Translations under genes and position numbers: made by a program | Source of the DNA: a virus | Lineage: Duplodnaviria; Caudoviricetes | Strand: one strand, 5' to 3' | DNA length: 59,268 nt | IMG/VR virus record: IMGVR_UViG_3300028024_000010 | Coordinates: 1-59,268 of that record | Shown: piece after piece, positions 39,411 to 59,268 of the stretch | How positions within the stretch are numbered: the first letter of the stretch is position 1 | Layout of the letters: every line of letters starts with the position of its first letter | The notes under the pieces: generated by a model | What the model was told of the DNA's origin: nothing | Seen by the model: the letters and a program-made list of their open reading frames with translations, nothing else | The model's database searches: none

Positions 39411-42400
39411 ATGGCACGTACCGCGATTGTCACCGGAGCAGGTCTGCTTGGTGCGGCGATCGGCTCTGAGTTCGGCAGTCCCGGCCTCGGCTTCACATTG
39501 GGCAGCCTTGCCGGTTCCGTCGTTGCAAGCTTTGCCGTGCCGAGCGGGTCGACGACAAAAGGCCCGCGCATCTCCGATCTCAAAGTTACGTCCTCGGCCT
39601 ATGGCGCCTTCATCCCCTATGGCTTCGGGACCGTCATCGTCGGCGGCAACATCATCTGGTCGACCGATCTCAAGGAGCACAAGAAGAAGAGCAAGAGCGG
39701 CAAGGGCAGCAGCGATACCGCTGGTACGGCGATCACCTTCTACTACACCGCCTCTTTCGCCCTCGGTCTTGCCTATGGTCCTGCCCAGGATGTGCTTCGC
39801 ATCTGGTTCGACGACAAGCTCTATTTCGACAAGACCGGAACCGGCCCTGTTATCAAGAAGGGCGGCCTTACGTTCCGCTTCTATCCGGGCGATGACAGCC
39901 AGCTGCCGGATCCATCAATCGTTGCCGCACTGGGCGAAGAGAATACGCCAGCCTGGCGAGGCCTTGTCTATATCGTCTTCGATGAACTCGACTTGAGCCC
40001 GTTCGCCAATCGCATTCCGACGATCAAGGTCGAGTTCACCTATAACGCGGTGCCGACATTTCCCTATACACCGCTGACGATACCTGCTGGAGCACCGGCG
40101 CCGACAGGTTCGTTCCTGGCGGTGGATCTCACGCGCAACGTTGCTTATACGACATCCACCGGAAATGCCTATTTGGAGCGCATCAACCTCGACACGATGA
40201 CGCTCGATTTCTGGAAAGACGGAAATATCGTCAATTCCGCAGGCAACGGATTTGTGAAGAATGCCTTGGGCGTCGGTCTCGATGGCTATATTTATGGCTC
40301 AGATGGCTCGGCTTATAATGATACGCCTCTTCTGAAGGTCAATCCCGAGACGTTGATGGAGGTTGCCCGGGGCGGGCTCGACGGAGATTTCACCGGCTAT
40401 CCCACGGCGATTACCGGAACGGCTGATGATATTGCTTCCATCCAGAACTTCGGCGTCAATGCTGTCAACACCTATGCGATTATCATCAGCCGTTTCGCCG
40501 CGACCGGATTTGTCGGCGTCTTGACCGTCAATGGCGGCCCGTCGGCGGCGGAGGATATCTCCGCTGGTTCACTGCCGATTCAATTAGCTGGTTGGTCAGA
40601 AGGCACGCCCGGAGATGGGCCGGCGATCTATATGGTCGGGGCGACTGATCTCTCCAGTACCGGCGCGATCGATACCATCGAATCCTGGGCCTATGCCTAT
40701 GGCATGCTGGCTGACGGTCAAATCGTTCGGGTTATCGTTGCCGGCTATCCGCTGTTTCAAAATACCTATGGCGGCGGTGCTGAGGCCCTGGCGAAAGGCT
40801 GCGCGATTGATTATTTCGATCCCCTTTCTTTGGATGACATCGCCGCAGCGGCTGGAAAATATTCGGGATATTACCTCACTTACAACACCGTTGGAACGGG
40901 ATGGTGGGACCAGACCGACGACACAATCATCTTCACATGCCGCCTGAATAAAGGATCGGGGTCCGATGTCCTGCTGGTCAAATACAAGCCGGACAAGCAG
41001 AACCTGTTTACGCCGATAGACACCGTCATTTGGGCGACGGTCGTGACCGGCGGTCTTTTTACCGGCACGACACATGGAACAAAATTGATCGGCAACCGCC
41101 TCGCTTATATGATGGGCAATGTGGTTTATCAGTTCGATACGACGACCGGCGCGATGACCACTCAGGTCTGGCCGATCAGCGCCACGAATGGAAGCTTTCC
41201 GCAGGTTTACGACACCGAGTCAGACAGTCTCGTCGCCTTTATTACCGGACATAACTGGACCCGGATTTATCTCAATCGCGGAACCGGTGACGGCACGACG
41301 GATGGTAGCATCGTCGCCGATCTGTGCAGCCGCATCGGGTATGGACCCGGTGACATCGATGTCTCGCAGCTGACCGATCCGGTGTATGGCTTCCTGGTCA
41401 CCAATCAATCGGCGGTGAAGGACAATATCCTGGCACTTGGCCAGGCGTTCTTTTTCGATCCTGTCGAGAGCGACTTCAAGATCAAGTTCCCGAAGCGTGG
41501 CGGTCCGTCCGTCGTGACGATTCCGCAAGACGACATGATGTGGCTCGGCAACAGCGGTTCCGACAAAAATCCGCAATTCATGTCGGATGATGAAACACAG
41601 GACGTCGATCTGCCGTTTTCCGTCTCGGTCGCGTTCCTGAATAAGGATCAGCAGGATCAGCAAGGCAGTATGGAATATCGCCGCATCGATGCGCCCGTCG
41701 CGACAATGGGTTCGCAGAACCGGACGACGGCGCAATTGCCGATCGTGATGACTGGGACCGATGCTTTGAAGATCGCGGAGCAAGCAGTTGACGCGGCGTG
41801 GGTCAGCCGGCATCACTACAGCCATATGCTGCCGCCGAAATATCTGAAATATGACGGCACCGACGTCGTCACATTCGCCTACTCGGATGGGACATCTACC
41901 CTGGCCCGGATCATCCAGCTTGGTACCGGCGCCGATTTTTCGCTTGATGTCACCAGTGTTTCCGAGGACCCGACGGTTTATGGCGGCACATTGATTGCTG
42001 ATAATGCCAACTATCCGGCGCAGGTGATCTCCGGGCCTGTGATCGGAAAGCTATTTGTCCTCAACATCCCGCTGCCGCGCGATGTGGACGATACTGGCGG
42101 TGTCGGGTCAAGAATCTATCTGGCGACATCGGGGTATAGCGCCGCAACGAATCCGCCTCGCGTCATCATGCGGAGCTATGACCAAGGCGTCACCTGGGAT
42201 GAAGTAACCCGCACCTATCTCGACGCGACCTGGGGCAGCTGCGTCACCGCACTTCCAGACACGACGCATCCCTTCGCCTGGAATGACGATTATACGCTCA
42301 CGATCCAGCTGACCGATGCCGGCAACGAAGCCCTGGCCAGTGTCACGGAAGCAGAGGTCTATGCCGGCAGCAATGTCGCCGCCATCATCAAATCGAACGG

Positions 42401-43685
42401 TGATGCCGAGATCATCCAGTTCGCAGATGTCACCCTGAATGCCGATGGCAGTTACACGCTGTCGCATATCCTGCGCGGCCGCCGCGGGACGGAGGTCTAC
42501 ACGGCCGGCCATGGGATCGGGGATTACTTCCTGCTGCTCGATGCGAGCGAGATGACCTCGGTTGTGGTGCCGTTGAGCGATATCAACCGGTCCGTCATGT
42601 GGAAGGTCGTGACCGCCGGCCAGGTGGCGGCCGACGTGGACGGGTTCACGCGGATCACGACCGGCGCCGATCTCAAGCCTTATGCCGTCGATCACATCGC
42701 TGTTGCTGCGTCAGGTTCCGATCTCAATCTCATCTGGGTACGCCGGACGCGTCTCGGCGGTGGCCTCTTCGACGGCACTGGCACCGTGCCACTATCGGAA
42801 ACCTCGGAAGCCTACGAGATCGATATCCTTTCCGGCCCCGGCGGCATCGTGAAGCGGACCATATCGGGCCTGACATCGCCGACAGCAACCTATACCGGTG
42901 CGCAGATCCTGACGGATTTTGGTACATCCATCAGCAGCCTGACGCTGAAAATCTACCAGCTGAGCGGCGTCGTCGGGCGCGGCTTCGCCAGGGAAACCAC
43001 GCTATCCGTTACCGGCTTGCCGAGCCTGTCGCCAACCGCCATCCCAGCAGTTCCGACCGGTCCGGCATATTTCCCCGCGGCGGGCCAGAACGCGCTGACC
43101 TGGAATGCAAACGTGCTCGGCGATTATGTGACGGCCTATCATCTCTATCGTGCTGCAGGAAATGGCGCCGCTTTCGCCGATGCCAGCCTGATCTGGTCCG
43201 GTAGCGTCAATTCCTACGTCGATAGCGGGCTCGCGGTCGGCCAGAAGAACACCTATTTCCTGACCGCGACGAACGCCATCGGGACATCATCGAACACGGC
43301 CGGCCTCGATACGACGGCGGGCGTCATCGTCAAGGATCTCCGGATCATCGGTGGGACACCGGGTGTCAAACCGACAGGGCTCCAAGAACTTCTGCTGATG
43401 GTCATGCTGTCCGGCGATACGTTGCCGAAGGACCTGATTTACAACGGCGTGCATAGCAAGATCAGCTGCGAAATAGCGCCGACCGCCGATTACACCATCA
43501 CCTTGAAAAAGAACGGCTCAACGATCGGGACCGGCACAATATTGGCTGGTCACACAACGGGAACATGGTCATTTGCAGCGGCTGTCACCTTTGCCGATGG
43601 CGATCTCTTCACCGTCACAGCGCCGGTATCTGATTCCACCATGTCCGGGCTCGCTTTGACGATCCTCGGCTCCCGCACGACCTGA
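39411..43685 (+). CDS. Tail tip/central fibre protein (RcGTA g15 megatron-like)
   Basis: GPRI.DL, S.YG..IP..G, PAWRGL.Y..F, NRIP, RGRRGT, W.RR.R; FN3-like domain near the C-terminus. Confidence 0.88.
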   Translation: MARTAIVTGAGLLGAAIGSEFGSPGLGFTLGSLAGSVVASFAVPSGSTTKGPRISDLKVTSSAYGAFIPYGFGTVIVGGNIIWSTDLKEHKKKSKSGKGSSDTAGTAITFYYTASFALGLAYGPAQDVLRIWFDDKLYFDKTGTGPVIKKGGLTFRFYPGDDSQLPDPSIVAALGEENTPAWRGLVYIVFDELDLSPFANRIPTIKVEFTYNAVPTFPYTPLTIPAGAPAPTGSFLAVDLTRNVAYTTSTGNAYLERINLDTMTLDFWKDGNIVNSAGNGFVKNALGVGLDGYIYGSDGSAYNDTPLLKVNPETLMEVARGGLDGDFTGYPTAITGTADDIASIQNFGVNAVNTYAIIISRFAATGFVGVLTVNGGPSAAEDISAGSLPIQLAGWSEGTPGDGPAIYMVGATDLSSTGAIDTIESWAYAYGMLADGQIVRVIVAGYPLFQNTYGGGAEALAKGCAIDYFDPLSLDDIAAAAGKYSGYYLTYNTVGTGWWDQTDDTIIFTCRLNKGSGSDVLLVKYKPDKQNLFTPIDTVIWATVVTGGLFTGTTHGTKLIGNRLAYMMGNVVYQFDTTTGAMTTQVWPISATNGSFPQVYDTESDSLVAFITGHNWTRIYLNRGTGDGTTDGSIVADLCSRIGYGPGDIDVSQLTDPVYGFLVTNQSAVKDNILALGQAFFFDPVESDFKIKFPKRGGPSVVTIPQDDMMWLGNSGSDKNPQFMSDDETQDVDLPFSVSVAFLNKDQQDQQGSMEYRRIDAPVATMGSQNRTTAQLPIVMTGTDALKIAEQAVDAAWVSRHHYSHMLPPKYLKYDGTDVVTFAYSDGTSTLARIIQLGTGADFSLDVTSVSEDPTVYGGTLIADNANYPAQVISGPVIGKLFVLNIPLPRDVDDTGGVGSRIYLATSGYSAATNPPRVIMRSYDQGVTWDEVTRTYLDATWGSCVTALPDTTHPFAWNDDYTLTIQLTDAGNEALASVTEAEVYAGSNVAAIIKSNGDAEIIQFADVTLNADGSYTLSHILRGRRGTEVYTAGHGIGDYFLLLDASEMTSVVVPLSDINRSVMWKVVTAGQVAADVDGFTRITTGADLKPYAVDHIAVAASGSDLNLIWVRRTRLGGGLFDGTGTVPLSETSEAYEIDILSGPGGIVKRTISGLTSPTATYTGAQILTDFGTSISSLTLKIYQLSGVVGRGFARETTLSVTGLPSLSPTAIPAVPTGPAYFPAAGQNALTWNANVLGDYVTAYHLYRAAGNGAAFADASLIWSGSVNSYVDSGLAVGQKNTYFLTATNAIGTSSNTAGLDTTAGVIVKDLRIIGGTPGVKPTGLQELLLMVMLSGDTLPKDLIYNGVHSKISCEIAPTADYTITLKKNGSTIGTGTILAGHTTGTWSFAAAVTFADGDLFTVTAPVSDSTMSGLALTILGSRTT

Positions 43686-51509: not shown

Positions 51510-51549
51510 CGGGGTGTAGCTCAGTCCGGTAGAGTGCCTGCTTTGGGAG
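51510..51549 (+). other. attP core: 5' half of tRNA-Pro(UGG)
   Basis: CGGGGTG TA GCTC AGTCCGGTA GAGT G CCTGC TT TGG GA G; tRNA similarity ends just after the anticodon loop, 6 bp from the int stop. Confidence 0.85.
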
Positions 51550-51555
51550 GCTCCA

Positions 51556-52719
51556 CTACACCGCGTTTTTCTTATTATCTTCCATAGGTTTGGCCTCATC
51601 CGGCGTTTCTGCCGGGGTGGATTTCGGGCCAGCGATCAGCTGTGACATCGCGGTCATGCCGGTCTTCACCTCTTCCACCGCATGAACATAGCGCAGCGTC
51701 GAAGCGATGTCTTTATGCCCCATGAATTTCTGGGTCAGCTTGATGTCGTTGGTCGCTTTCAGGAACCAGGTGCCGGCTGTATGCCGGAGATCATGCCAGC
51801 GAAACTCGGCGATCTTTGCTTTCGCCAATATCGCCGCCCATTCCTTGCGCCAACCATTCTTCGAAAACGGCTGCCTCGACCCTTTCTGCCGGGGGCCGCG
51901 CTTCTTCTTCGCAATATAGGTGAAGACATATTCGGCATGATTGCCGCGCTCGTTGGCGAGCAGCACCTGCAGCTCCGGCGTAATGCCGATCTTCAGCGGT
52001 TCCTTGCCGGGCCGGCGGCTCTTTGTGCGGATGGTGATCTCGCCGGTAAGGAAATTGACCTCATCCCAGCGGAGCCAGAGCGCATTCTCCTGTCGGACAG
52101 CGGTGAGGATGGAGAAGCGGATCACTGGCAGCAGCTCCGGTCTCAGTTCCCGGATGGCGGCATAAAGGCGTTCGATCTCACTGAGATCGGCATAGCGCTC
52201 GATCGGGGCCGCTTCGAGAAGCAGCAACTGCTTCCATGCTGGCATCTCACCGATATCGACCTTCCAGAGATCCCGCGCGCGCATGAAGACGCGGCGCAGC
52301 AGCTCGACCTCCCGATTGACCGTGCTGGCGGCGACCAACTTGGTCGATCCCTTCTTGGCATTAGCCGGCCGCATGCCGCGGCGCCTTGCTACATATTCAG
52401 CGATCTCTTTATCGGTCAGGGCATCGAGCATGCGATCGCGGCCGAATTGGCGCTGCATATTGGCGAGCTGATATTCGATATCGTTGGCTGATGTCGCGTG
52501 CTTGCCGATCTCGAGCCAATATTTACCGAAGGCTTCCCTGACGGTGATCGACTCTTTCTGGCGGAAATGGGTGCCGGTTACCGCGTCGGTCCGGAGCTTC
52601 GCGGCGATCGTTTCTGCCTGCTCGCGATTCTCTGTCTGCGTGCTTCCTCGATATCGAACACCATTGAGCGTGAAGTCGTACCTGAAGTACGGCGAGTCCG
52701 GACGTTTATAGACACGCAT
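51556..52719 (-). CDS. int: Tyrosine integrase
   Basis: TAVR, HDLRHT, MGH and T.RY catalytic motifs; arm-binding N-terminus MRVYKR..F.LNG.RYR.ST. Confidence 0.95.
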   Translation of the reverse strand: MRVYKRPDSPYFRYDFTLNGVRYRGSTQTENREQAETIAAKLRTDAVTGTHFRQKESITVREAFGKYWLEIGKHATSANDIEYQLANMQRQFGRDRMLDALTDKEIAEYVARRRGMRPANAKKGSTKLVAASTVNREVELLRRVFMRARDLWKVDIGEMPAWKQLLLLEAAPIERYADLSEIERLYAAIRELRPELLPVIRFSILTAVRQENALWLRWDEVNFLTGEITIRTKSRRPGKEPLKIGITPELQVLLANERGNHAEYVFTYIAKKKRGPRQKGSRQPFSKNGWRKEWAAILAKAKIAEFRWHDLRHTAGTWFLKATNDIKLTQKFMGHKDIASTLRYVHAVEEVKTGMTAMSQLIAGPKSTPAETPDEAKPMEDNKKNAV

Positions 52720-52907
52720 GCCGACTGCCTCTGTCGATCGATGAATTCCTGCAGGTCGGAAAGGGCGAATTGCCGCCGCCGACCGATCAGCACATAGCGT
52801 AATTCCCCACGGCGCACACATTCAAGCAGCGTCTTTTCGCAGATATTCAACAGCTTAGCTGCTTCGGCCTGGATATAGAGGAGTTTTTGCGCGGGTTCGG
52901 CGCTCAT
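52578..52907 (-). CDS. xis: Excisionase-like HTH protein
   Basis: EAAKLLNI..KTL....RGEL..IGRR....DL..FI; overlaps the int 5' end. Confidence 0.8.
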   Translation of the reverse strand: MSAEPAQKLLYIQAEAAKLLNICEKTLLECVRRGELRYVLIGRRRQFALSDLQEFIDRQRQSACVSINVRTRRTSGTTSRSMVFDIEEARRQRIASRQKRSPRSSGPTR

Positions 52908-54277: not shown

Positions 54278-54747
54278 GGCTTAGGCTCCCGACCCACTAC
54301 TGTTAGCGCCTCTCGCCATTTGTCGCGTACACGCTCAATCTCCACATCCTTCTCTGCAAGCTGGCGGCAGACATCCGCATGTAGCCGCTGCCACGTTGCA
54401 TTATCGTCCTGCAACCGTTTCGCCATCGCCAACAGACGCTTGGCTGCGTTGCGGAAACCTACCGAGAATGCGACATTGCGCCGGCTGTTTTCGTTCCAGG
54501 CATTCATAGATCCATCATCGTCATAATCGACCTCAACAGCTCCGCCGTTGTCGCCCTCGGTGTCAGTCGTGAGGATTTTAGAGCCGGCAGCATTGACGAT
54601 ATAAAACTCGTCGAATCCTTCGTAGATGTCTTCGCCAGTGCCGAAAGAACCATCAGTTTTGAAGCTGTCCATTTCCCACGGTCCAGGGTCGGCTTGTTTT
54701 TCCAGCCGCTCCAACTCTTCGATTTCTTGCGCGGTGAGGTCGGTCAT
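54274..54747 (-). CDS. Ead/Ea22-like protein
   Basis: EL..LEK.A.PGPW and N..F....NA...LL motifs. Confidence 0.6.
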   Translation of the reverse strand: MTDLTAQEIEELERLEKQADPGPWEMDSFKTDGSFGTGEDIYEGFDEFYIVNAAGSKILTTDTEGDNGGAVEVDYDDDGSMNAWNENSRRNVAFSVGFRNAAKRLLAMAKRLQDDNATWQRLHADVCRQLAEKDVEIERVRDKWREALTVVGREPKP

Positions 54748-54750
54748 GGT

Positions 54751-54870
54751 TTATCCCTCCATCCTGTCATGTCCCGTCACCGGGTTGAATCGTGGCGTGG
54801 CCTTGGCGGTGGCTCGCAACAGGCGCCAGAGCTGGCAGTAGCGGTGCAACCATGTGAGGATGCGGGTCAT
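54751..54870 (-). CDS. Small basic protein (39 aa)
   Basis: Starts MTRILTWLHRYCQLWRLL; ATGA overlap with the ATPase stop. Confidence 0.45.
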   Translation of the reverse strand: MTRILTWLHRYCQLWRLLRATAKATPRFNPVTGHDRMEG

Positions 54871-57572
54871 GGGAACAGCCAGTCTGCTGCTTTGACAGTG
54901 CCTCGGCCATTCGGCTCTATCAGGCCATAGGCCGAGACGGCTGACATATAGACCCCGGCCGTGCTGGCAGTCGGCGAAAGACCGACCTTTTCGGCGACTG
55001 CGTCGCGGCGGATGTCCTTCGGCCAAGCCCGATAGATGACCTCGAAAACCCGCTGCTCCTGTGGACCAAGAAGGCCGCGCGCCATCTGATAAAGATCCTC
55101 GCGCGTGGCGGCCGTTGGTGTATTCGCAGCCTTCAAGCCGGCCGGCGTCAGCGCGATCTTGCCTGACGATGTCTCGAGCAATCCGGCTTTGACCAGCTGC
55201 GAGACATAGACGCCGAAAGTCGAGGCCTTCGGGCTATAGCCAGCGACGACGCAGGCGCGGTCACGGGTGGCTGGGTCCTGGCCGATCTTTCGCCACCACG
55301 CCACGGCATCGAGAACACGCTGCTGTGCCACCGCGATACCTTCGGCCTGGCGCGCGGTGGAGCGGACGACGGGATTCGAACCCGCGACATTCGGCTTGGA
55401 AGACTGATGTTCTACCGGCTGAGCTACGTCCGCGGTCTGCTTGACCCTTTCGAGCGGCGCGTTGATGGCGTCAAACAGGTGCTGTGTCTGTGCCAGGATC
55501 TCGTTGATGCATCGCGACGCCTTGCCGCTGATCTCCAGCAGATTGCTGCGCTCCCTGGCCATGCCGGCGGCATACCCCTCCTGATAGGCCTTGGTCCGCA
55601 CCGCAGCCAATTCCTGCTCGCTGGCGTCCTCCTTGCCGGCTTGTTTCTCCAACTCCACGATGCGCCGGCGCAACGCGATCGGATCGTCAGCTTCTGCAGC
55701 TGCCACGGCATCACCAATGAGCGCCCGCAGCTTGGCCGGATCGACTGGAGCCGTTTTGACCTCATGCCGATGATCGTCATCGGTCGGGGTAGCGCTGTTG
55801 TCGTAGGTGCCGATGCGGGGGAACTTGACCAGTTCGACGATATTGGCCTCGCCGGAGATCACCCATCCCTCGCCGGTCTTCAGGCCAGCCAGCGACCGGG
55901 AGACCTTCTCCGCGATGTCCTTGGCGACGTTCCCCTTAAGCCATTCCTTGATCGGCGTCTGATCGGCCGGCAACGTCAGCCGGTGCGCGATCAGCGTTTC
56001 GCAGCTGCCGAGCACGGCGTTATGCAGGGATTGGGTCCGCTGCGTCACCACCACGAGGCGGATGCCCTTGGACCGCCCGGCGGTCGCCAATTTCTTCGCG
56101 AAGTGGATGGTCAGGTTCTCGCCGCCGAAGCCCGCCCGCTCCTTAGGGCAGTTACCAGTCACAAATACCTTTCCATTCCGGCGCGCGACAAACGCGCCAG
56201 TGGGTACAGTCACATCCCAGACCAAGCCATCGTAGTGCTCGCGGGAAGGTTTCCGCACCCAATTCATTCGCCGTTTATTGGCGATATTGACGATCCATTG
56301 GCCACTCGCGGCGGTTTGTTTGGTTGCTGCCAGGCCGAGGCGGATCGCTATCTCCTGAAAATCGTCAGCCAACCCACCATTGTGACCGGGATAAAACCGA
56401 ACCCACTTGCCGTTCAGCGAAGTGCCATCACCCTCGAGCAAACCTTGGAACAGCGCTTCCAACTGATCGCGTGACGCCTGCTCAATGATCCGACGCGGAA
56501 CGCGGTGTAAATCCCCTTCGAGCAACTCAATAAAGCGACGGCTACTCGTCCCGCCAAAATACCAACACACGGACGGGCCTGAACTCACGGTCCTCCCCAT
56601 CGTGGCAGCGGCGCGTTCAGGGCGCTCATAGCGAGACATCCCCTCGATGCCTGCCAGAACGGTATCAATTTCGGAGGCGATAGACCGGCCCACCTTAGTC
56701 GTCGATATCGACTGCGACAGCATTATCCGCGGCTCGACGGTCCGCGCGGAATGGAGATTGCCGTCCGTAATGATCCAGCCAAGTATGCGTGCCTCATCGA
56801 GCGTGAGACCAGCCATTCCCGGTCCAATAGGCGCTCCGCCCACCGGCGTATAGACGTTGGTTGGCACTTTCTCCGCTTGGCAGAATGTCCAATCATATAG
56901 CTTGTAACGCCCGGAGCTTCCGCGTTGGACTCTCCGCAACACCACTCGGTGATCCGGCGTAGAGAGGCTGTCAATTCCGTCGCTCTTGAGCCTTACCATT
57001 TCGCCGCACCACTGGCGGCGAACCACTCGCTCGACCGCACCGTAGAAAAAACGGCCGGTCGCGGTATCAAAACAAACGGCCTCAGCACCGACATCAATAT
57101 CAGCGTGTCGTCTAAAGCCGCTCTTAGTTAGGATCTCAGTGTCTTCTGACAGACAGAACTCGTGCGCCTCCTCGATGACCAGGTAGAGGATGCCGCGCAT
57201 TTTCCGCAGCAGGGCTGGCGCGAATTCCGTGAAGAAGGTCTGCAGCCCGCCCGGCTTGAAATCGGCCATGTCGATGATGGTGAGCGGCAGCTCGCCACCG
57301 GCCACCAGCTCGGCGATCGGCTTACCCGCCGTCTCCTGGATCTGCACATGGCCATGAGGGCCGCCGAGGATCTGGAACGGCAGCCCCGGTCGCTTGCCGT
57401 CGGCGCTGGATATCAGCCCCCACCAGTCGGACTTGATCGGGTCCAGGATGCAGACGCGGGCGCCCTGGGCCACGACATGCTCGACCAGCAGCTTGGCGGT
57501 CGAGGTCTTGCCCGAGCCGGTTTTTCCAACCACGGCGGTGTGCTGGCCGATGATGTCCTTGAAGATCTTCAT
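54867..57572 (-). CDS. HerA/DUF87-like P-loop ATPase with intein and C-terminal winged helices
   Basis: GKTGSGKT Walker A, ILDP, VIEEAHEF Walker B, GRSKG, VTQR; ATGA overlap with the upstream gene. Confidence 0.88.
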   Translation of the reverse strand: MKIFKDIIGQHTAVVGKTGSGKTSTAKLLVEHVVAQGARVCILDPIKSDWWGLISSADGKRPGLPFQILGGPHGHVQIQETAGKPIAELVAGGELPLTIIDMADFKPGGLQTFFTEFAPALLRKMRGILYLVIEEAHEFCLSEDTEILTKSGFRRHADIDVGAEAVCFDTATGRFFYGAVERVVRRQWCGEMVRLKSDGIDSLSTPDHRVVLRRVQRGSSGRYKLYDWTFCQAEKVPTNVYTPVGGAPIGPGMAGLTLDEARILGWIITDGNLHSARTVEPRIMLSQSISTTKVGRSIASEIDTVLAGIEGMSRYERPERAAATMGRTVSSGPSVCWYFGGTSSRRFIELLEGDLHRVPRRIIEQASRDQLEALFQGLLEGDGTSLNGKWVRFYPGHNGGLADDFQEIAIRLGLAATKQTAASGQWIVNIANKRRMNWVRKPSREHYDGLVWDVTVPTGAFVARRNGKVFVTGNCPKERAGFGGENLTIHFAKKLATAGRSKGIRLVVVTQRTQSLHNAVLGSCETLIAHRLTLPADQTPIKEWLKGNVAKDIAEKVSRSLAGLKTGEGWVISGEANIVELVKFPRIGTYDNSATPTDDDHRHEVKTAPVDPAKLRALIGDAVAAAEADDPIALRRRIVELEKQAGKEDASEQELAAVRTKAYQEGYAAGMARERSNLLEISGKASRCINEILAQTQHLFDAINAPLERVKQTADVAQPVEHQSSKPNVAGSNPVVRSTARQAEGIAVAQQRVLDAVAWWRKIGQDPATRDRACVVAGYSPKASTFGVYVSQLVKAGLLETSSGKIALTPAGLKAANTPTAATREDLYQMARGLLGPQEQRVFEVIYRAWPKDIRRDAVAEKVGLSPTASTAGVYMSAVSAYGLIEPNGRGTVKAADWLFP
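55358..55433 (-). tRNA. tRNA-Gly(UCC), nested in frame within the ATPase CDS; possibly degenerate
   Basis: GCGGACG TA GCTC AGCCGGTA GAAC A TCAGT CT TCC AA GCCGA ATGTC GCGGG TTCGAAT CCCGT CGTCCGC T CCA: 76 nt, perfect acceptor stem, U73, encoded CCA. Confidence 0.85.
56151..57155 (-). mobile_element. Intein (335 aa) with LAGLIDADG homing endonuclease
   Basis: Block A CLSEDTEILT, block B TPDHRV, endonuclease GWIITDG and GLLEGDG, block F/G VWDVTV..FVTGN followed by Cys+1. Confidence 0.93.
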
Positions 57573-57871
57573 CCGTTGCCCTTCGTCGGCATTTGCTGCG
57601 CCCAAAAGTCGGCAATGAACTCGTCCAATTCGGCCTGGATCAGTGCAACGCGGTTAAGATCGCCCTCGGTGACGTCATCGTCATCATCGAGCGTGCGCAG
57701 CAGCGTCGCGAAGACATGCTGTGCGCCGGCAAAGAAGGCGGCCCGCATCTCAGACAGCTGGACATATCCAGCGTCTTCAGGAATCGCCATCATCCGCAGG
57801 CTATGCCAGCCGGCCTCAATCAGCTTGCCGCTATTGGCGAGTTCTCGTTCTAGTTCTTCAATCTGGCTCAT
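57569..57871 (-). CDS. Conserved hypothetical phage protein
   Basis: IEAGW..Q..EMRAAFFAGAQH motif. Confidence 0.7.
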   Translation of the reverse strand: MSQIEELERELANSGKLIEAGWHSLRMMAIPEDAGYVQLSEMRAAFFAGAQHVFATLLRTLDDDDDVTEGDLNRVALIQAELDEFIADFWAQQMPTKGNG

Positions 57872-58206
57872 GCAGCCTCCTTCATGCCGGCTCGTTCCCG
57901 GCGCTCTTCGTGTCTGGCAAGGGTCGCTAGGCGCAGCTTAATCGAGTTCTTGCGGCGCCCCATGCGGCGGCCGATATCGACCGGATGGCCACCGGCGATG
58001 ATCGTCGGGAGCGGTCCGTCGACGCTCTGGCCGGCCATGTGGTTGCGCAGGATGACCAGGAATGGCTCCGGCCAGTCGAACTTGATCGCGCCGGCATATA
58101 TCCGGGCCAGGGTCTTCCAACGCAGCCTGCGGGTCATTGTCTTGCGCCCGTCCAGCAGAGCGCGCACCATGGGGCCGCTGAAGATGATGGGTCTGTCGGT
58201 CATCAC
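57868..58206 (-). pseudogene. Chimeric remnant: ASCH-like N-terminus joined to a fragment of a C5 DNA methyltransferase
   Basis: RPIIFSGPMVRALLDGRKTMTRR, then TLARI..G..KF and SVDGPLPTIIAGGH. Confidence 0.55.
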
Positions 58207-58367
58207 TTCCTTGTCGCCTCTGACAGAATCTCGATTGCCCGTTGCGGATCATCATCGTCGATCGCGTTGATCGCACGGCCGATGGCGAGGCGCATCCGGT
58301 GGTTTTCGAAGAGCAGGGCGGCCTTATCGACCGCCGCCACCGCCCAGCTGAAGAAGGACTTGATCAC
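58203..58367 (-). CDS. Small hypothetical protein (54 aa)
   Basis: Manual translation from GTG: MIKSFFSWAVAAVDKAALLFENHRMRLAIGRAINAIDDDDPQRAIEILSEATRK. Confidence 0.5.
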   Translation of the reverse strand: MIKSFFSWAVAAVDKAALLFENHRMRLAIGRAINAIDDDDPQRAIEILSEATRK

Positions 58368-58397: not shown

Positions 58398-59268
58398 TCA
58401 CGTCTCGATCTGCGGGTAATATTGCTTGCCGGTTAGCCCGAAGGTGCTGGCAATCGCATTGCGCGCCGTCAACTTCTGGGGATCGCCGAACTTCTGATCG
58501 GCAAGCAAAGGCCGACATTCCGGATGGACGCGAAGCGTATAGCGTTTCCAGCTGCCGTCAGGCTCCGGCGTCGAATTGATGACATGGACCATGACGAGTG
58601 GCTCATCATCGCGGACATTCTTGCGATAGAGCGCGCCGACGCCCTCTTCATGATCGAGGATCTCAGCATTACCGGCGAGCAGATATTTATCGAAACCGAA
58701 GCGTTCCATCATGACGCGCCGGATCTCGGCGTTCGGCTCGGCATCGATCAGCTCGACCGTGATACGTTCCGGACGAAGGATGACCCAATCCGGAACGCGC
58801 ACGCCATGCCAGGAATAGACACCCCAGCCATCACGATATTCGATTGCCGCGCGATCTTCGAAATGAAGCCGGCCTTGGTCATCGCGCGCCAAGTGGCGCG
58901 GGCGGTCGGTCACAAGACAGACTTTCTCCATCGGCCAGAACCAGCCGGCCGATTGCGTCAGTTCGATCAGGCCGACGAGACGCTCGGTCTGCTGGACCAG
59001 GGCGCAGTTTTGGCGGAAGAAATCATAGAAGCCGATCCAGCTGGCATCATGTTGGCCATATCCGCTCGCCCCCACGCTCGCCCCCACGCTCTCCCGCACG
59101 CTCTCCCGCACGCTCGCCCACACGCTCGCCCACACGCTCTCCCACACGCTCTCCCGCACGCTCTCCCGCACGCTCTCCCCCACGCTCGCCCACACGCTCT
59201 CCCGCACGCTCGCCCACACGCTCTCCCGCACGCTCTCCCACACGCTCTCCCCCACGCTCTCCCGCACG
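58398..59268 (-). CDS. 3' part of the DUF6745-like repeat protein
   Basis: GQHDASW..FYDFF, GW.WP, LH....PA-type RAAIEY.DGWGVY.WHGV, NAEIRR, STPEPDG, LRV.P. Confidence 0.85.
   Translation of the reverse strand, partial: VRESVGESVWESVRESVWASVRESVWASVGESVRESVRESVWESVWASVWASVRESVRESVGASVGASGYGQHDASWIGFYDFFRQNCALVQQTERLVGLIELTQSAGWFWPMEKVCLVTDRPRHLARDDQGRLHFEDRAAIEYRDGWGVYSWHGVRVPDWVILRPERITVELIDAEPNAEIRRVMMERFGFDKYLLAGNAEILDHEEGVGALYRKNVRDDEPLVMVHVINSTPEPDGSWKRYTLRVHPECRPLLADQKFGDPQKLTARNAIASTFGLTGKQYYPQIET
59064..59268 (-). repeat. 12-bp coding tandem repeat, ~17 units
   Basis: Same unit as at 1..192. Confidence 0.95.

What the first reader, a model, noticed from the sequence alone, without database searches (positions are those of the whole stretch)
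55358..55433. Complete tRNA-Gly(UCC) written in frame, same strand, inside a protein-coding gene
Seen: a 76-nt cloverleaf with perfect acceptor stem (GCGGACG/CGTCCGC), U8-A9, GG in the D-loop, UUCGAAU T-loop, Gly discriminator U73 and encoded CCA. It lies in the linker between the ATPase and winged-helix domains and translates without stops as ADVAQPVEHQSSKPNVAGSNPVVRS, with position 1 on a codon boundary. It has two stem mismatches (C11-A24 in the D stem and one A-C in the anticodon stem), while the acceptor/T arm is intact. Known: RNase P recognises mainly the acceptor/T-arm half. Inference: the element could be (a) a dual-coding tRNA whose excision cuts the early mRNA upstream of xis/int, (b) a decoy or replacement against anticodon nucleases, (c) an integration target for satellites, or (d) a captured relic turning into linker.
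Basis: partly seen in the sequence, partly recalled or inferred. Interest (0 to 1): 0.88.

Follow-up and report, generated by a model that had tools for sequence, protein, structure and literature searches.

The report
tRNA gene nested inside phage gene
A complete glycine tRNA gene sits in frame inside the floppy middle of a phage ATPase gene, and related phages keep glycine or glutamine tRNAs at the same spot, so one stretch of DNA is kept both as tRNA and as protein code, although this particular copy looks weakened.

Summary
ARAGORN and Rfam (60.9 bits) call one tRNA in the window, tRNA-Gly(UCC) at 55358-55433. It lies on the minus strand, in frame, in a 912-aa HerA-like ATPase/winged-helix ORF. 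It encodes 25 residues of a linker that AlphaFold2 predicts to be disordered.

It is not an oddity of this contig. Four other distinct contigs carry a full tRNA at the same linker with the frame open: Gly-UCC twice and Gln-UUG twice. Eleven further homologues, known as protein only, have linker peptides that allow 20-21 of 21 cloverleaf pairs.

The tRNA is an island of nucleotide identity. Fourfold-degenerate sites never differ inside it (0/14, 0/16, 0/15), against 31-62% in the flanking domains. The two Gln copies differ by six compensatory pairs.

Two lysogens keep the gene intact, and an attP-like tRNA-Pro fragment lies next to the integrase. It is therefore not the attachment site.

This copy alone has two A.C mismatches and no longer folds as a cloverleaf in silico.

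Best reading: a nested phage tRNA gene, probably matured from the early mRNA. Expression is untested.

The closest precedent in print is selC nested in selB. Earlier notes of this scan report similar nested tRNAs in marine phage genes.

The parts
55358..55433 (-). Nested tRNA-Gly(UCC), 76 nt with encoded CCA. It is read in frame as residues 725-749 of the ORF.
   Evidence: ARAGORN. Rfam RF00005 at 60.9 bits. Own tRNA covariance model at 83.9 bits. Mismatches C11.A24 and A29.C41.
54867..57605 (-). Host ORF of 912 aa: a HerA/DUF87-type P-loop ATPase, interrupted by an intein, followed by a long helix, a disordered linker and two winged-helix-like domains.
   Evidence: ORF and translation. Pfam DUF87 at 2.4e-9 and HerA_C. 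Profile hits to solved HerA chains, best E 1.8e-21. Homologues of 515-939 aa, most about 560-620 aa, nearly all covering 93-100% of the C-terminal half.
56151..57155 (-). Intein, residues 151-485, inserted after EEAHEF, from C...TGN to the next C.
   Evidence: Sequence. In every other locus where both extein parts were found they lie next to each other with no such insert. Weak LAGLIDADG_3 hit. Not studied further.
55434..55670 (-). Hypervariable helical region just upstream of the tRNA (C-extein residues 161-239).
   Evidence: In 60-nt windows, 27-52% nucleotide identity to L003 and L084 between about positions 510 and 700, against 72-93% in windows over the tRNA. AlphaFold2 helix at C-extein residues 178-229.
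54867..55357 (-). Rest of the linker and two winged-helix-like domains (C-extein residues 265-427).
   Evidence: AlphaFold2 gives pLDDT below 50 for C-extein residues 234-265, then two helix/strand domains at 274-341 and 350-421. Weak Foldseek matches to DtxR/IdeR, MarR and ScpB-type winged-helix proteins, E 5e-3 or worse.
51556..52821 (-). Tyrosine integrase, same strand, 2.5 kb downstream of the tRNA.
   Evidence: Pfam Phage_integrase at 1.6e-23. PHROG 1 integrase at 1.7e-48.
51510..51552 (+). attP-like 5' half of a tRNA-Pro(UGG) gene, abutting the integrase stop codon.
Evidence: Sequence. Local alignments to four metagenomic tRNA-Pro genes cover tRNA position 1 to the anticodon loop.

Best explanation
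This is a genuine phage tRNA gene nested in frame, on the coding strand, in the disordered linker of an early HerA-like ATPase/winged-helix gene.

Shown: the same linker in related temperate phages holds full tRNAs (Gly-UCC or Gln-UUG) with the reading frame always open. The tRNA sequence is held by selection on nucleotides and base pairs, not on the peptide.

Inferred: the tRNA has no promoter of its own and is transcribed as part of the early mRNA. On a given transcript there are two outcomes. Either RNase P and 3' processing cut the tRNA out, which leaves a 5' fragment without a stop codon and a 3' fragment without a leader. Or ribosomes read through and make the full-length protein with a 25-residue floppy linker. 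The released tRNA would read GGA/GGG; the Gln-UUG copies in relatives would read CAA. These A-ending codons are minor in this 61% G+C phage.

Seen, with its meaning inferred: this window's copy has acquired two G-to-A changes that break one D-stem pair and one anticodon-stem pair. It is probably a weakened tRNA, or one that has only just begun to decay. Its acceptor and T arms, the part that RNase P mainly recognises, are intact.
For: tRNA calls: ARAGORN, Rfam at 60.9 bits and my own covariance model at 83.9 bits.

Recurrence: of about 139 homologous loci (80 viral, 59 genomic, some duplicated between collections), default ARAGORN finds a same-strand tRNA inside the linker in L003=L083 and L084 (Gly-UCC) and in L005 and L100 (Gln-UUG). 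All have one open frame from the ATPase to the winged-helix domains. Their Rfam scores are 76.7, 68.9, 62.8 and 59.7 bits.

Protein-only homologues: P0002, P0003 (=L084), P0005, P0010, P0018, P0029, P0033, P0040, P0094, P0117 and P0243 have linker peptides that allow 20-21 of 21 cloverleaf pairs and 11-12 of 12 invariant bases. Shuffled peptides give a median of 14-16 pairs (maximum 20). Forty-three linker windows from tRNA-less homologues give 11-17 pairs. Peptide residues 2 and 23 covary as base pair 5-68 requires.

Selection on nucleotides: fourfold-degenerate sites differ at 0/14, 0/16 and 0/15 inside the tRNA. In the ATPase they differ at 31-38%, and in the winged-helix part at 46-62%. 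The tRNA is an island of identity (72-93% in the 60-nt windows that cover it) next to a region at 27-52%.

Covariation: the two Gln copies pair at 20 of 20 positions, with 6 pairs changed on both sides. The embedded Gly tRNAs differ from seven sampled free-standing tRNA-Gly(UCC) genes by compensatory changes at pairs 5-68 and 6-67. Their acceptor stem GCGGACG was seen in none of 20 free-standing metagenomic tRNA-Gly(UCC) genes.

Disorder: C-extein residues 234-265 have pLDDT below 50 and no secondary structure.

Not an att site.

No sigma-70-like promoter was found in 54700-58300.

Codon use in the window: GGA 8.6% and GGG 12.4% of Gly codons, CAA 18.9% of Gln codons.

Precedent with the same proposed mechanism: selC nested in selB (PMC8124441, text read).
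Against: No RNA evidence of any kind. No RNA run holds the stretch, so transcription, processing and charging are all inferred.

This copy is the weakest of the three close Gly copies. In a 10-sequence alignment, the only 2 unpaired cells of 210 are its C11.A24 and A29.C41. Its predicted minimum-energy fold (-24.0 kcal/mol, z -1.35) loses the D and anticodon arms. L003, L084 and a free-standing tRNA fold as cloverleaves at -31.5 to -32.4 kcal/mol. Its sister L003 has C8 in place of the near-universal U8. Three of the seven differences between the window and L003 therefore hit conserved or paired positions, which hints at relaxed constraint in this sub-lineage.

Nested tRNAs are a minority trait: 10 of the 120 listed close homologues and 2 of the 150 listed 50%-identity representatives. 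A decayed remnant exists (L062, 20.9 bits in my model, no Rfam call).

Frozen synonymous sites would also be expected for a conserved DNA site.

The codon-supply benefit is not shown, because no host genome is known for comparison.
Confidence: 0.6

Rival explanations
1. Recent relic. The ancestor carried a working nested tRNA, but in this phage it has lost function through the two stem-breaking changes. It now survives only as a tolerated linker peptide on its way to decay.
For: The only 2 of 210 unpaired cells are in the window's copy. The cloverleaf is lost in its predicted fold, which is 7.6 kcal/mol weaker than L084's. Its Rfam score is 60.9 bits against 76.7 for L084. All three window-specific changes fall in stems and none is compensated. 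A decayed in-frame remnant exists at the same place in L062. Remnant selC sequences are described inside selB (PMC8124441).
Against: Only 4 of 76 bases differ from the intact L084 copy. No fourfold-degenerate site has changed, although the flanks are 31-62% diverged at such sites, so any loss of function is very recent. Both mismatches are A.C, which can form a wobble-like pair (recalled, not tested). All conserved loop bases, the anticodon loop, the acceptor stem, the T arm, U73 and the CCA are intact. The score of 60.9 bits equals that of the perfectly paired Gln copies.
Confidence: 0.25
2. A cis-acting processing switch rather than a decoding tRNA. The tRNA shape is kept as an RNase P cleavage site that splits the early transcript. 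This would set the ratio of full-length ATPase/winged-helix protein to truncated product and uncouple the downstream genes, including int. Whether the released RNA is ever charged would be secondary.
For: The acceptor and T arms, the main RNase P determinants (established knowledge), are the best-kept part and are perfect even in this copy. The gene lies upstream of five small ORFs and int on the same strand. The frame is always kept open, so the full-length protein matters. An alternative-expression model has been proposed for selB-selC (PMC8124441).
Against: Relatives also keep intact anticodon stems and loops, Gly identity features and covarying anticodon stems. A pure cleavage site would not need these. 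Different tRNA identities occupy the slot. There are no data on transcripts.
Confidence: 0.1
3. A DNA site for recombination: an attP of this phage, an attB offered to satellites or other integrative elements, or a hotspot for exchange between mosaic phages.
For: The 31-nt 3' half of this tRNA occurs in 9 IMG/VR contigs. Six of these carry only an attP-type fragment, running from the anticodon stem to the CCA, of a tRNA-Gly(GCC); a seventh (L161) got an odd ARAGORN call. The gene is mosaic around the tRNA: the N-extein is 96% identical in protein to L084, but the winged-helix part only 35%. Frozen synonymous sites would also fit a DNA site.
Against: The tRNA is complete, not a half. It lies 2.5 kb and five ORFs away from int, and a separate tRNA-Pro 5' half abuts int. 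Two lysogens carry the gene unsplit beside other tRNA genes. No second copy or fragment of it is present in the window. Compensatory stem changes point to RNA pairing, not to a DNA site. The region of high identity shared with L084 ends about 200 nt before the tRNA, so the tRNA is not itself the mosaic boundary.
Confidence: 0.05

Closest known systems
selC (tRNA-Sec) nested in the selB ORF of Alphaproteobacteria (Mukai 2021, Int J Mol Sci 22:4605, PMC8124441; main text read)
   Same: An entire tRNA lies on the coding strand inside a bacterial-type ORF and is translated into extra residues. It is conserved across relatives, and decayed remnants occur in some lineages. The proposed mechanism is that processing yields a non-stop mRNA, so the tRNA and the full-length protein are alternative products. 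Like the present case, it is bioinformatic only.
   Different: There the tRNA forms a C-terminal extension and is the protein's own ligand, in a cellular operon. Here an ordinary elongator tRNA sits mid-gene between two domains of a phage ATPase, with no evident link between protein and tRNA. Several tRNA identities occupy the same slot. The paper calls its case the first nested tRNA in a bacterial protein ORF.
Mycobacteriophage Fionnbharth tRNA-Lys overlapping gene 37, and tRNA-dependent lysogeny (mBio 2024, PMC10865867; passages read)
   Same: A temperate-phage tRNA overlaps a protein-coding gene and lengthens its product. The phage tRNA is not close to the host's tRNA.
   Different: [quoted passage not shown] It replaces the host tRNA that integration destroys. 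Here it is on the same strand, mid-gene and in frame. The attP-like fragment beside int is tRNA-Pro, not Gly, so complementation of a disrupted host tRNA is not indicated.
Nested tRNAs in compact animal mitochondrial genomes (tRNA-Lys inside cox1 of Armadillidium vulgare; seen only as cited in PMC8124441)
   Same: A tRNA is fully inside a protein-coding region in direct orientation, so the tRNA and the mRNA are alternative products.
   Different: That is an organelle under extreme genome compaction, with reduced tRNAs. Here a canonical 76-nt tRNA lies in a 59-kb phage record.
attP sites inside phage or virus ORFs (integration-dependent immunity, attP within the repressor ORF: mentioned in PMC10865867; SSV1-type and Mx8 integrase genes: recalled, not checked)
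   Same: tRNA-derived sequence read as part of a protein-coding gene of a temperate element.
   Different: Those hold a tRNA fragment, and integration splits the gene. Here the tRNA is whole and the gene stays whole in lysogens.
Ordinary intergenic phage-encoded tRNAs
   Same: A single phage tRNA for a minor, A-ending codon family. It has diverged from host tRNAs in the acceptor stem while keeping the identity features.
   Different: Those lie between genes. This one is inside a reading frame that is kept open.

Membership tests
tRNA (Rfam RF00005), isotype Gly(UCC) | Score at or above the curated family threshold | tested here: met
   60.9 bits against a gathering score of 29, full model 1-71. 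ARAGORN calls tRNA-Gly tcc.
tRNA (Rfam RF00005), isotype Gly(UCC) | Cloverleaf with stems of 7, 4, 5 and 5 base pairs | tested here: inconclusive
   19 of 21 pairs are standard; C11.A24 and A29.C41 are not. The thermodynamic minimum-energy fold keeps only the acceptor and T arms. The close relatives L003 and L084 fold as full cloverleaves.
tRNA (Rfam RF00005), isotype Gly(UCC) | Conserved tertiary and loop bases (U8, A14, G18 G19, U33, G53 U54 U55 C56, A58, C61) | tested here: met
   All are present in the sequence. The list of conserved positions is recalled.
tRNA (Rfam RF00005), isotype Gly(UCC) | Glycine identity set: U73, G1-C72, C2-G71, G3-C70, C35 C36 (set recalled from memory) | tested here: met
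   All are present. These positions are invariant among the 10 aligned embedded and free-standing tRNA-Gly(UCC) sequences.
tRNA (Rfam RF00005), isotype Gly(UCC) | Transcribed, processed at both ends and aminoacylated | not testable with these tools
   No RNA run holds the stretch. This needs wet-lab work.
[quoted passage not shown] | Whole tRNA on the coding strand, inside an ORF that stays open through it | tested here: met
   The same holds in L003, L084, L005 and L100.
[quoted passage not shown] | Arrangement conserved among homologues, with RNA-level constraint | tested here: met
   Four other distinct contigs at the DNA level. Eleven homologues at the protein level. Frozen fourfold-degenerate sites. 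Covariation.
[quoted passage not shown] | Functional tie between host protein and tRNA (SelB binds tRNA-Sec) | tested here: not met
   The host protein is a HerA-type ATPase with winged-helix domains. The slot holds Gly, Gln and probably other tRNAs. No tie is evident.
attP or tDNA fragment of an integrative element | Only a 3' or 5' part of the tRNA, adjacent to the integrase gene | tested here: not met
   The tRNA is complete at 76 nt and lies 2.5 kb from int with five ORFs between. A different tRNA fragment (Pro, 5' half) abuts int.
attP or tDNA fragment of an integrative element | The sequence is split between the prophage ends in lysogens | tested here: not met
   In L084 the gene is intact in a 227-kb contig, followed by int and tRNA-Val. 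In L100 it is intact in a 4.1-Mb chromosome. No lysogen of this window's own phage was available.
tRNA-dependent lysogeny (Fionnbharth type) | The phage tRNA is of the same isotype as the host tRNA disrupted at attB | tested here: inconclusive
   The attP-like fragment is tRNA-Pro and the nested tRNA is Gly. The attB itself is unknown.

The most novel reading that the evidence does not exclude
The linker of this HerA-like early gene is a dedicated tRNA slot. Temperate soil phages park different rare-codon tRNAs there: Gly-UCC and Gln-UUG are seen, and peptides suggest anticodons CCN and CAY. On every transcript, ribosome read-through and tRNA maturation would compete. The phage would thereby gain a built-in switch that trades the dose of a DNA-binding ATPase, and expression of the downstream integrase operon, against tRNA supply. 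Together with this scan's earlier notes on marine phages, this would make in-frame tRNA nesting in disordered linkers a general and overlooked way of encoding tRNAs in phages.
Probability: 0.2. Interest if true: 0.8.

Novelty: new variant of a known kind. Interest (0 to 1): 0.62.

Why it matters
Annotation pipelines usually do not allow a tRNA and a protein gene to share the same bases on the same strand. Nested tRNAs are therefore either dropped or cause the gene to be split. The only report in print that my four full-text searches found for bacteria-type genomes is selC inside selB, which calls itself the first. That case is a C-terminal extension, and the tRNA is the protein's own ligand.

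Here an ordinary elongator tRNA sits mid-gene in a phage. There is quantitative evidence that the same bases are constrained as RNA while the reading frame is kept open. At least two tRNA identities occupy the same slot.

If the tRNA is matured, every maturation event destroys one mRNA. That gives a simple, testable coupling between tRNA supply and early gene dosage in a temperate phage. It also offers a natural system for studying how far one sequence can serve both as RNA structure and as protein linker.

Tried and rejected
attP hypothesis. I first suspected that the linker was the phage attachment site, as with SSV1- or Mx8-type attP inside an ORF. I rejected this for three reasons. The loci with short tblastn matches still have full-length ORFs. 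Two lysogens keep the gene intact. A separate attP-like fragment abuts int.

RNA evidence. No RNA holder was listed for the stretch. The single DNA run gave only Logan contigs, which break inside the tRNA. Nothing can be said about expression.

ARAGORN at 85% thresholds gave 737 calls over the loci. This was noise and was not used.

Foldseek on the C-terminal model gave no match with E of 0.001 or better; the weak matches were HerA chains and winged-helix proteins.

Widening the DNA sample. Viral scans with P0092, L005, L100 and alignment A7 brought no new nested tRNA, only the same two contigs.

The 'PGITH..' linker motif could not be examined, because no locus with DNA carries it.

Codon use is only suggestive without a host genome.

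A sigma-70-type promoter scan found nothing. This is weak evidence, since other promoter types are not covered.

The protein tree needs at least 8 gains or losses of the tRNA. However, the gene is mosaic, so I do not interpret the count as independent gains.

Literature. Four full-text searches found no phage case of a same-strand, in-frame nested tRNA.


Full report
**What is there.** The window is an IMG/VR virus record, linear and estimated 67% complete. ARAGORN finds a single tRNA in it: tRNA-Gly(UCC) at 55358-55433 on the minus strand. Rfam's tRNA model matches at 60.9 bits against a threshold of 29, and flags two non-standard pairs. The tRNA lies inside a 912-residue ORF, 54867..57605 on the minus strand. 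It is read without a stop as residues 725-749, with tRNA position 1 on a codon boundary.

**The host gene.**
- The N terminus matches DUF87/HerA (Pfam 2.4e-9). A profile of the family hits solved HerA chains, best E 1.8e-21.
- Residues 151-485 are an intein. It is absent from every other locus in which both extein parts were found.
- Homologues are 515-939 residues long, most about 560-620, and nearly all cover 93-100% of the C-terminal half. The ATPase/winged-helix fusion is therefore real.
- The family is large: 5,835 representatives at 50% identity with E up to 0.001.
- An AlphaFold2 model of the C-extein (mean pLDDT 77) shows a long helix at residues 178-229. A stretch with pLDDT below 50 and no secondary structure follows at 234-265, and it contains the tRNA-encoded peptide (240-264). 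Two compact helix/strand domains come after it. These resemble winged-helix proteins only weakly.
- A tyrosine integrase lies 2.5 kb downstream on the same strand.

**Recurrence in relatives.** I collected 80 viral and 59 genomic loci that encode relatives.
- Default ARAGORN finds a same-strand tRNA inside the same linker in L003 (the same contig as L083, L162 and L179; 78% protein identity), L084 (58%), L005 (45%) and L100 (32%).
- The first two carry Gly-UCC and the last two Gln-UUG.
- All have one open frame from the ATPase to the winged-helix part.
- The Gly tRNAs start on a codon's first base. Both Gln tRNAs are read with a codon that starts at tRNA position 2.
- Rfam scores are 76.7 (L084), 68.9 (L003), 62.8 (L100) and 59.7 (L005) bits.

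- P0002, P0003, P0005, P0010, P0018, P0029, P0033, P0040, P0094, P0117 and P0243 allow 20-21 of 21 cloverleaf pairs and 11-12 of 12 invariant bases under some choice of codons.
- Shuffled peptides give a median of 14-16 pairs, with a maximum of 20.
- Forty-three linker windows from tRNA-less homologues give 11-17 pairs and 3-9 invariant bases.
- Peptide residues 2 and 23 covary (D with V, G with A, P with G, R with A, A with G), exactly as base pair 5-68 requires. P0005 is the one exception.
- In this frame the anticodon is codon 12. It reads S (TCN) in most, P (CCN) in four and H (CAY) in one. This suggests further identities, but it is inference from protein alone.
- The trait is a minority one: 10 of the 120 listed close homologues and 2 of 150 representatives.
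- A decayed in-frame remnant sits at the same place in L062. It scores 20.9 bits in my model and gets no Rfam call.

**Selection acts on the RNA, not on the peptide.**

Identity along the gene, from 60-nt windows between the window, L003 and L084:

| Region | Nucleotide identity |
|---|---|
| ATPase part | 72-97% |
| Helical region just upstream of the tRNA (about positions 510-700) | 27-52% |
| Windows covering the tRNA | 72-93% |

Differences at fourfold-degenerate sites:

| Comparison | tRNA codons | ATPase | Winged-helix part |
|---|---|---|---|
| Window vs L003 | 0/14 | 31.4% | 45.6% |
| Window vs L084 | 0/16 | 31.5% | 60.0% |
| L003 vs L084 | 0/15 | 37.8% | 62.2% |

- The changes that do occur in the tRNA mostly alter the peptide, which is 76-88% identical.
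- The two Gln tRNAs form all 20 pairs. Six pairs are changed on both sides, one on one side, and none is broken.
- The three embedded Gly tRNAs share the acceptor stem GCGGACG/CGTCCGC. Relative to the sampled free-standing tRNA-Gly(UCC) genes this differs by compensatory changes at pairs 5-68 and 6-67.
- A metagenome scan with the central 27-mer gave 24 hits. Twenty are free-standing tRNA-Gly(UCC) genes, 14 of them in tRNA clusters such as Thr-Tyr-Gly-Thr or Pro-Gly-Arg, and none has that acceptor stem. One is an att-like fragment, one is cut by a contig end, and two are the nested copies of the L003 and L084 types.
- The central region of that alignment is identical by construction, because it was the search pattern.

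**Not the attachment site.**
- L084 lies in a 227-kb contig. Its twin L190 lies in an 811-kb contig. In L084 the intact gene is followed by small ORFs, an integrase and tRNA-Val.
- L100 lies in a 4.1-Mb chromosome. Its own tRNA-Gln is only 82% identical to the nested one, and a tRNA-Met lies 6.7 kb downstream.
- In the window, the 5' half of a tRNA-Pro(UGG) abuts the integrase stop codon.
- Many relatives have weak tRNA-like hits 2-5 kb downstream of the gene, in the position expected for attP.
- The 31-nt 3' half of the nested tRNA also occurs in other IMG/VR contigs as classic attP-type fragments of tRNA-Gly(GCC). This shows only that glycine tRNAs with this T arm and acceptor stem are common integration targets.

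**State of this copy.**
- Relative to L084 it differs at positions 24, 26, 29 and 31, by three G-to-A changes and one C-to-T change. Position 26 is shared with L003.
- The changes give C11.A24, A29.C41 and U31.G39.
- These are the only 2 unpaired cells of 210 in the 10-sequence alignment.
- Its predicted minimum-energy fold is -24.0 kcal/mol with z -1.35, and it keeps only the acceptor and T arms. L003, L084 and a free-standing tRNA fold as cloverleaves at -31.5 to -32.4 kcal/mol.
- The sister copy L003 has C8.
- This copy may therefore be a weakened tRNA or one that has only just begun to decay. Thermodynamic folding ignores base modifications and tertiary contacts, so this does not settle function.

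**Assembly.** Logan contigs of the one DNA run that holds the stretch break within the tRNA, where several contexts share it. One loose end continues into the L084-type linker, so relatives co-occur in that sample. Depth on the two sides is similar, 52.8 and 56.1. A join between two co-occurring relatives at the shared tRNA cannot be excluded for the window. The nested arrangement itself is present in separately assembled contigs.

**How it most likely works.** No sigma-70-like promoter is seen in the gene, so I infer co-transcription with the early operon. Each transcript then has two possible fates.
- It is processed by RNase P and 3' trimming. This releases the tRNA and leaves a non-stop 5' fragment and a leaderless 3' fragment.
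- It is translated through, giving the full-length protein.

This is the model that Mukai proposed for selC in selB (PMC8124441). UCC and UUG read A-ending codons, which are minor here: GGA is 8.6% of Gly codons and CAA is 18.9% of Gln codons. The 1,425-codon ORF at 39411-43685 has the highest density of GGA/GGG among the large ORFs, 3.2 per 100 codons against 1.7 per 100 overall. That fits codon supply but does not prove it. Nothing about expression could be tested.

**Comparison and novelty.**
- The closest case in print is selC nested in selB, which its author calls the first nested tRNA in a bacterial ORF.
- The closest phage case found is the Fionnbharth tRNA-Lys. It overlaps a gene on the opposite strand at the gene's 3' end (PMC10865867, passages read).
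- Four full-text searches found no same-strand, in-frame, mid-gene tRNA in a phage.
- Earlier unchecked notes of this scan report the same kind of arrangement in a small gene of marine phages. This window adds a second, unrelated host gene from soil temperate phages.
- I class it as a new variant of a known kind.

Noticed in passing
window 56151-57155 (-): An intein (residues 151-485) lies after the EEAHEF motif of the HerA-like ATPase. In all other loci where both extein parts were found they lie next to each other, so none has it. The long homologues P0008, P0096, P0117 and P0258 (791-939 aa) may hold inserts; this was not checked.
   Followed up: partly
window 51510-51552 (+): The 5' half of a tRNA-Pro(UGG) gene, from position 1 to the anticodon loop, abuts the integrase stop codon. 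It is a likely attP of the less common type that carries the 5' part of the tRNA.
   Followed up: partly
proteins P0034, P0043, P0045, P0080, P0081, P0087, P0088, P0092, P0096, P0104, P0112 (linker): A second conserved linker motif, PGITH[RA]..P[YF]TP, occurs at the same place in homologues from two separate tree clades. It may be another nucleotide-level element. No DNA was available and it remains unexplained.
   Followed up: partly
L062:6679-6754: A decayed tRNA-like remnant lies in frame in the same linker of a distant relative. It scores 20.9 bits in my model and gets no Rfam call.
   Followed up: partly
L161, L163, L164, L166-L169: Other IMG/VR contigs carry the same 3' end as part of attP-type fragments of a tRNA-Gly(GCC), running from the anticodon stem to the CCA. 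L165 shows the full tRNA-Gly(GCC) in a ten-tRNA array.
   Followed up: partly
window 54867-57605 vs L084 and L003: The gene is mosaic. The N-extein is 96% identical in protein to L084 and 93% to L003. The helical region before the tRNA cannot be aligned to either. The winged-helix part is 91% identical to L003 but only 35% to L084.
   Followed up: partly
L094:3075-4366: In Bradyrhizobium sp. NAS80.1 the ATPase part and the winged-helix part of the homologue match in different frames. This could be a frameshift, a sequencing error or a split gene. No tRNA was detected there.
   Followed up: no
window 58398-59267 (-): A DUF6745 gene has an N-terminal run of 12-base coding repeats (ESV[WR]...) that reaches the end of the record.
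   Followed up: no
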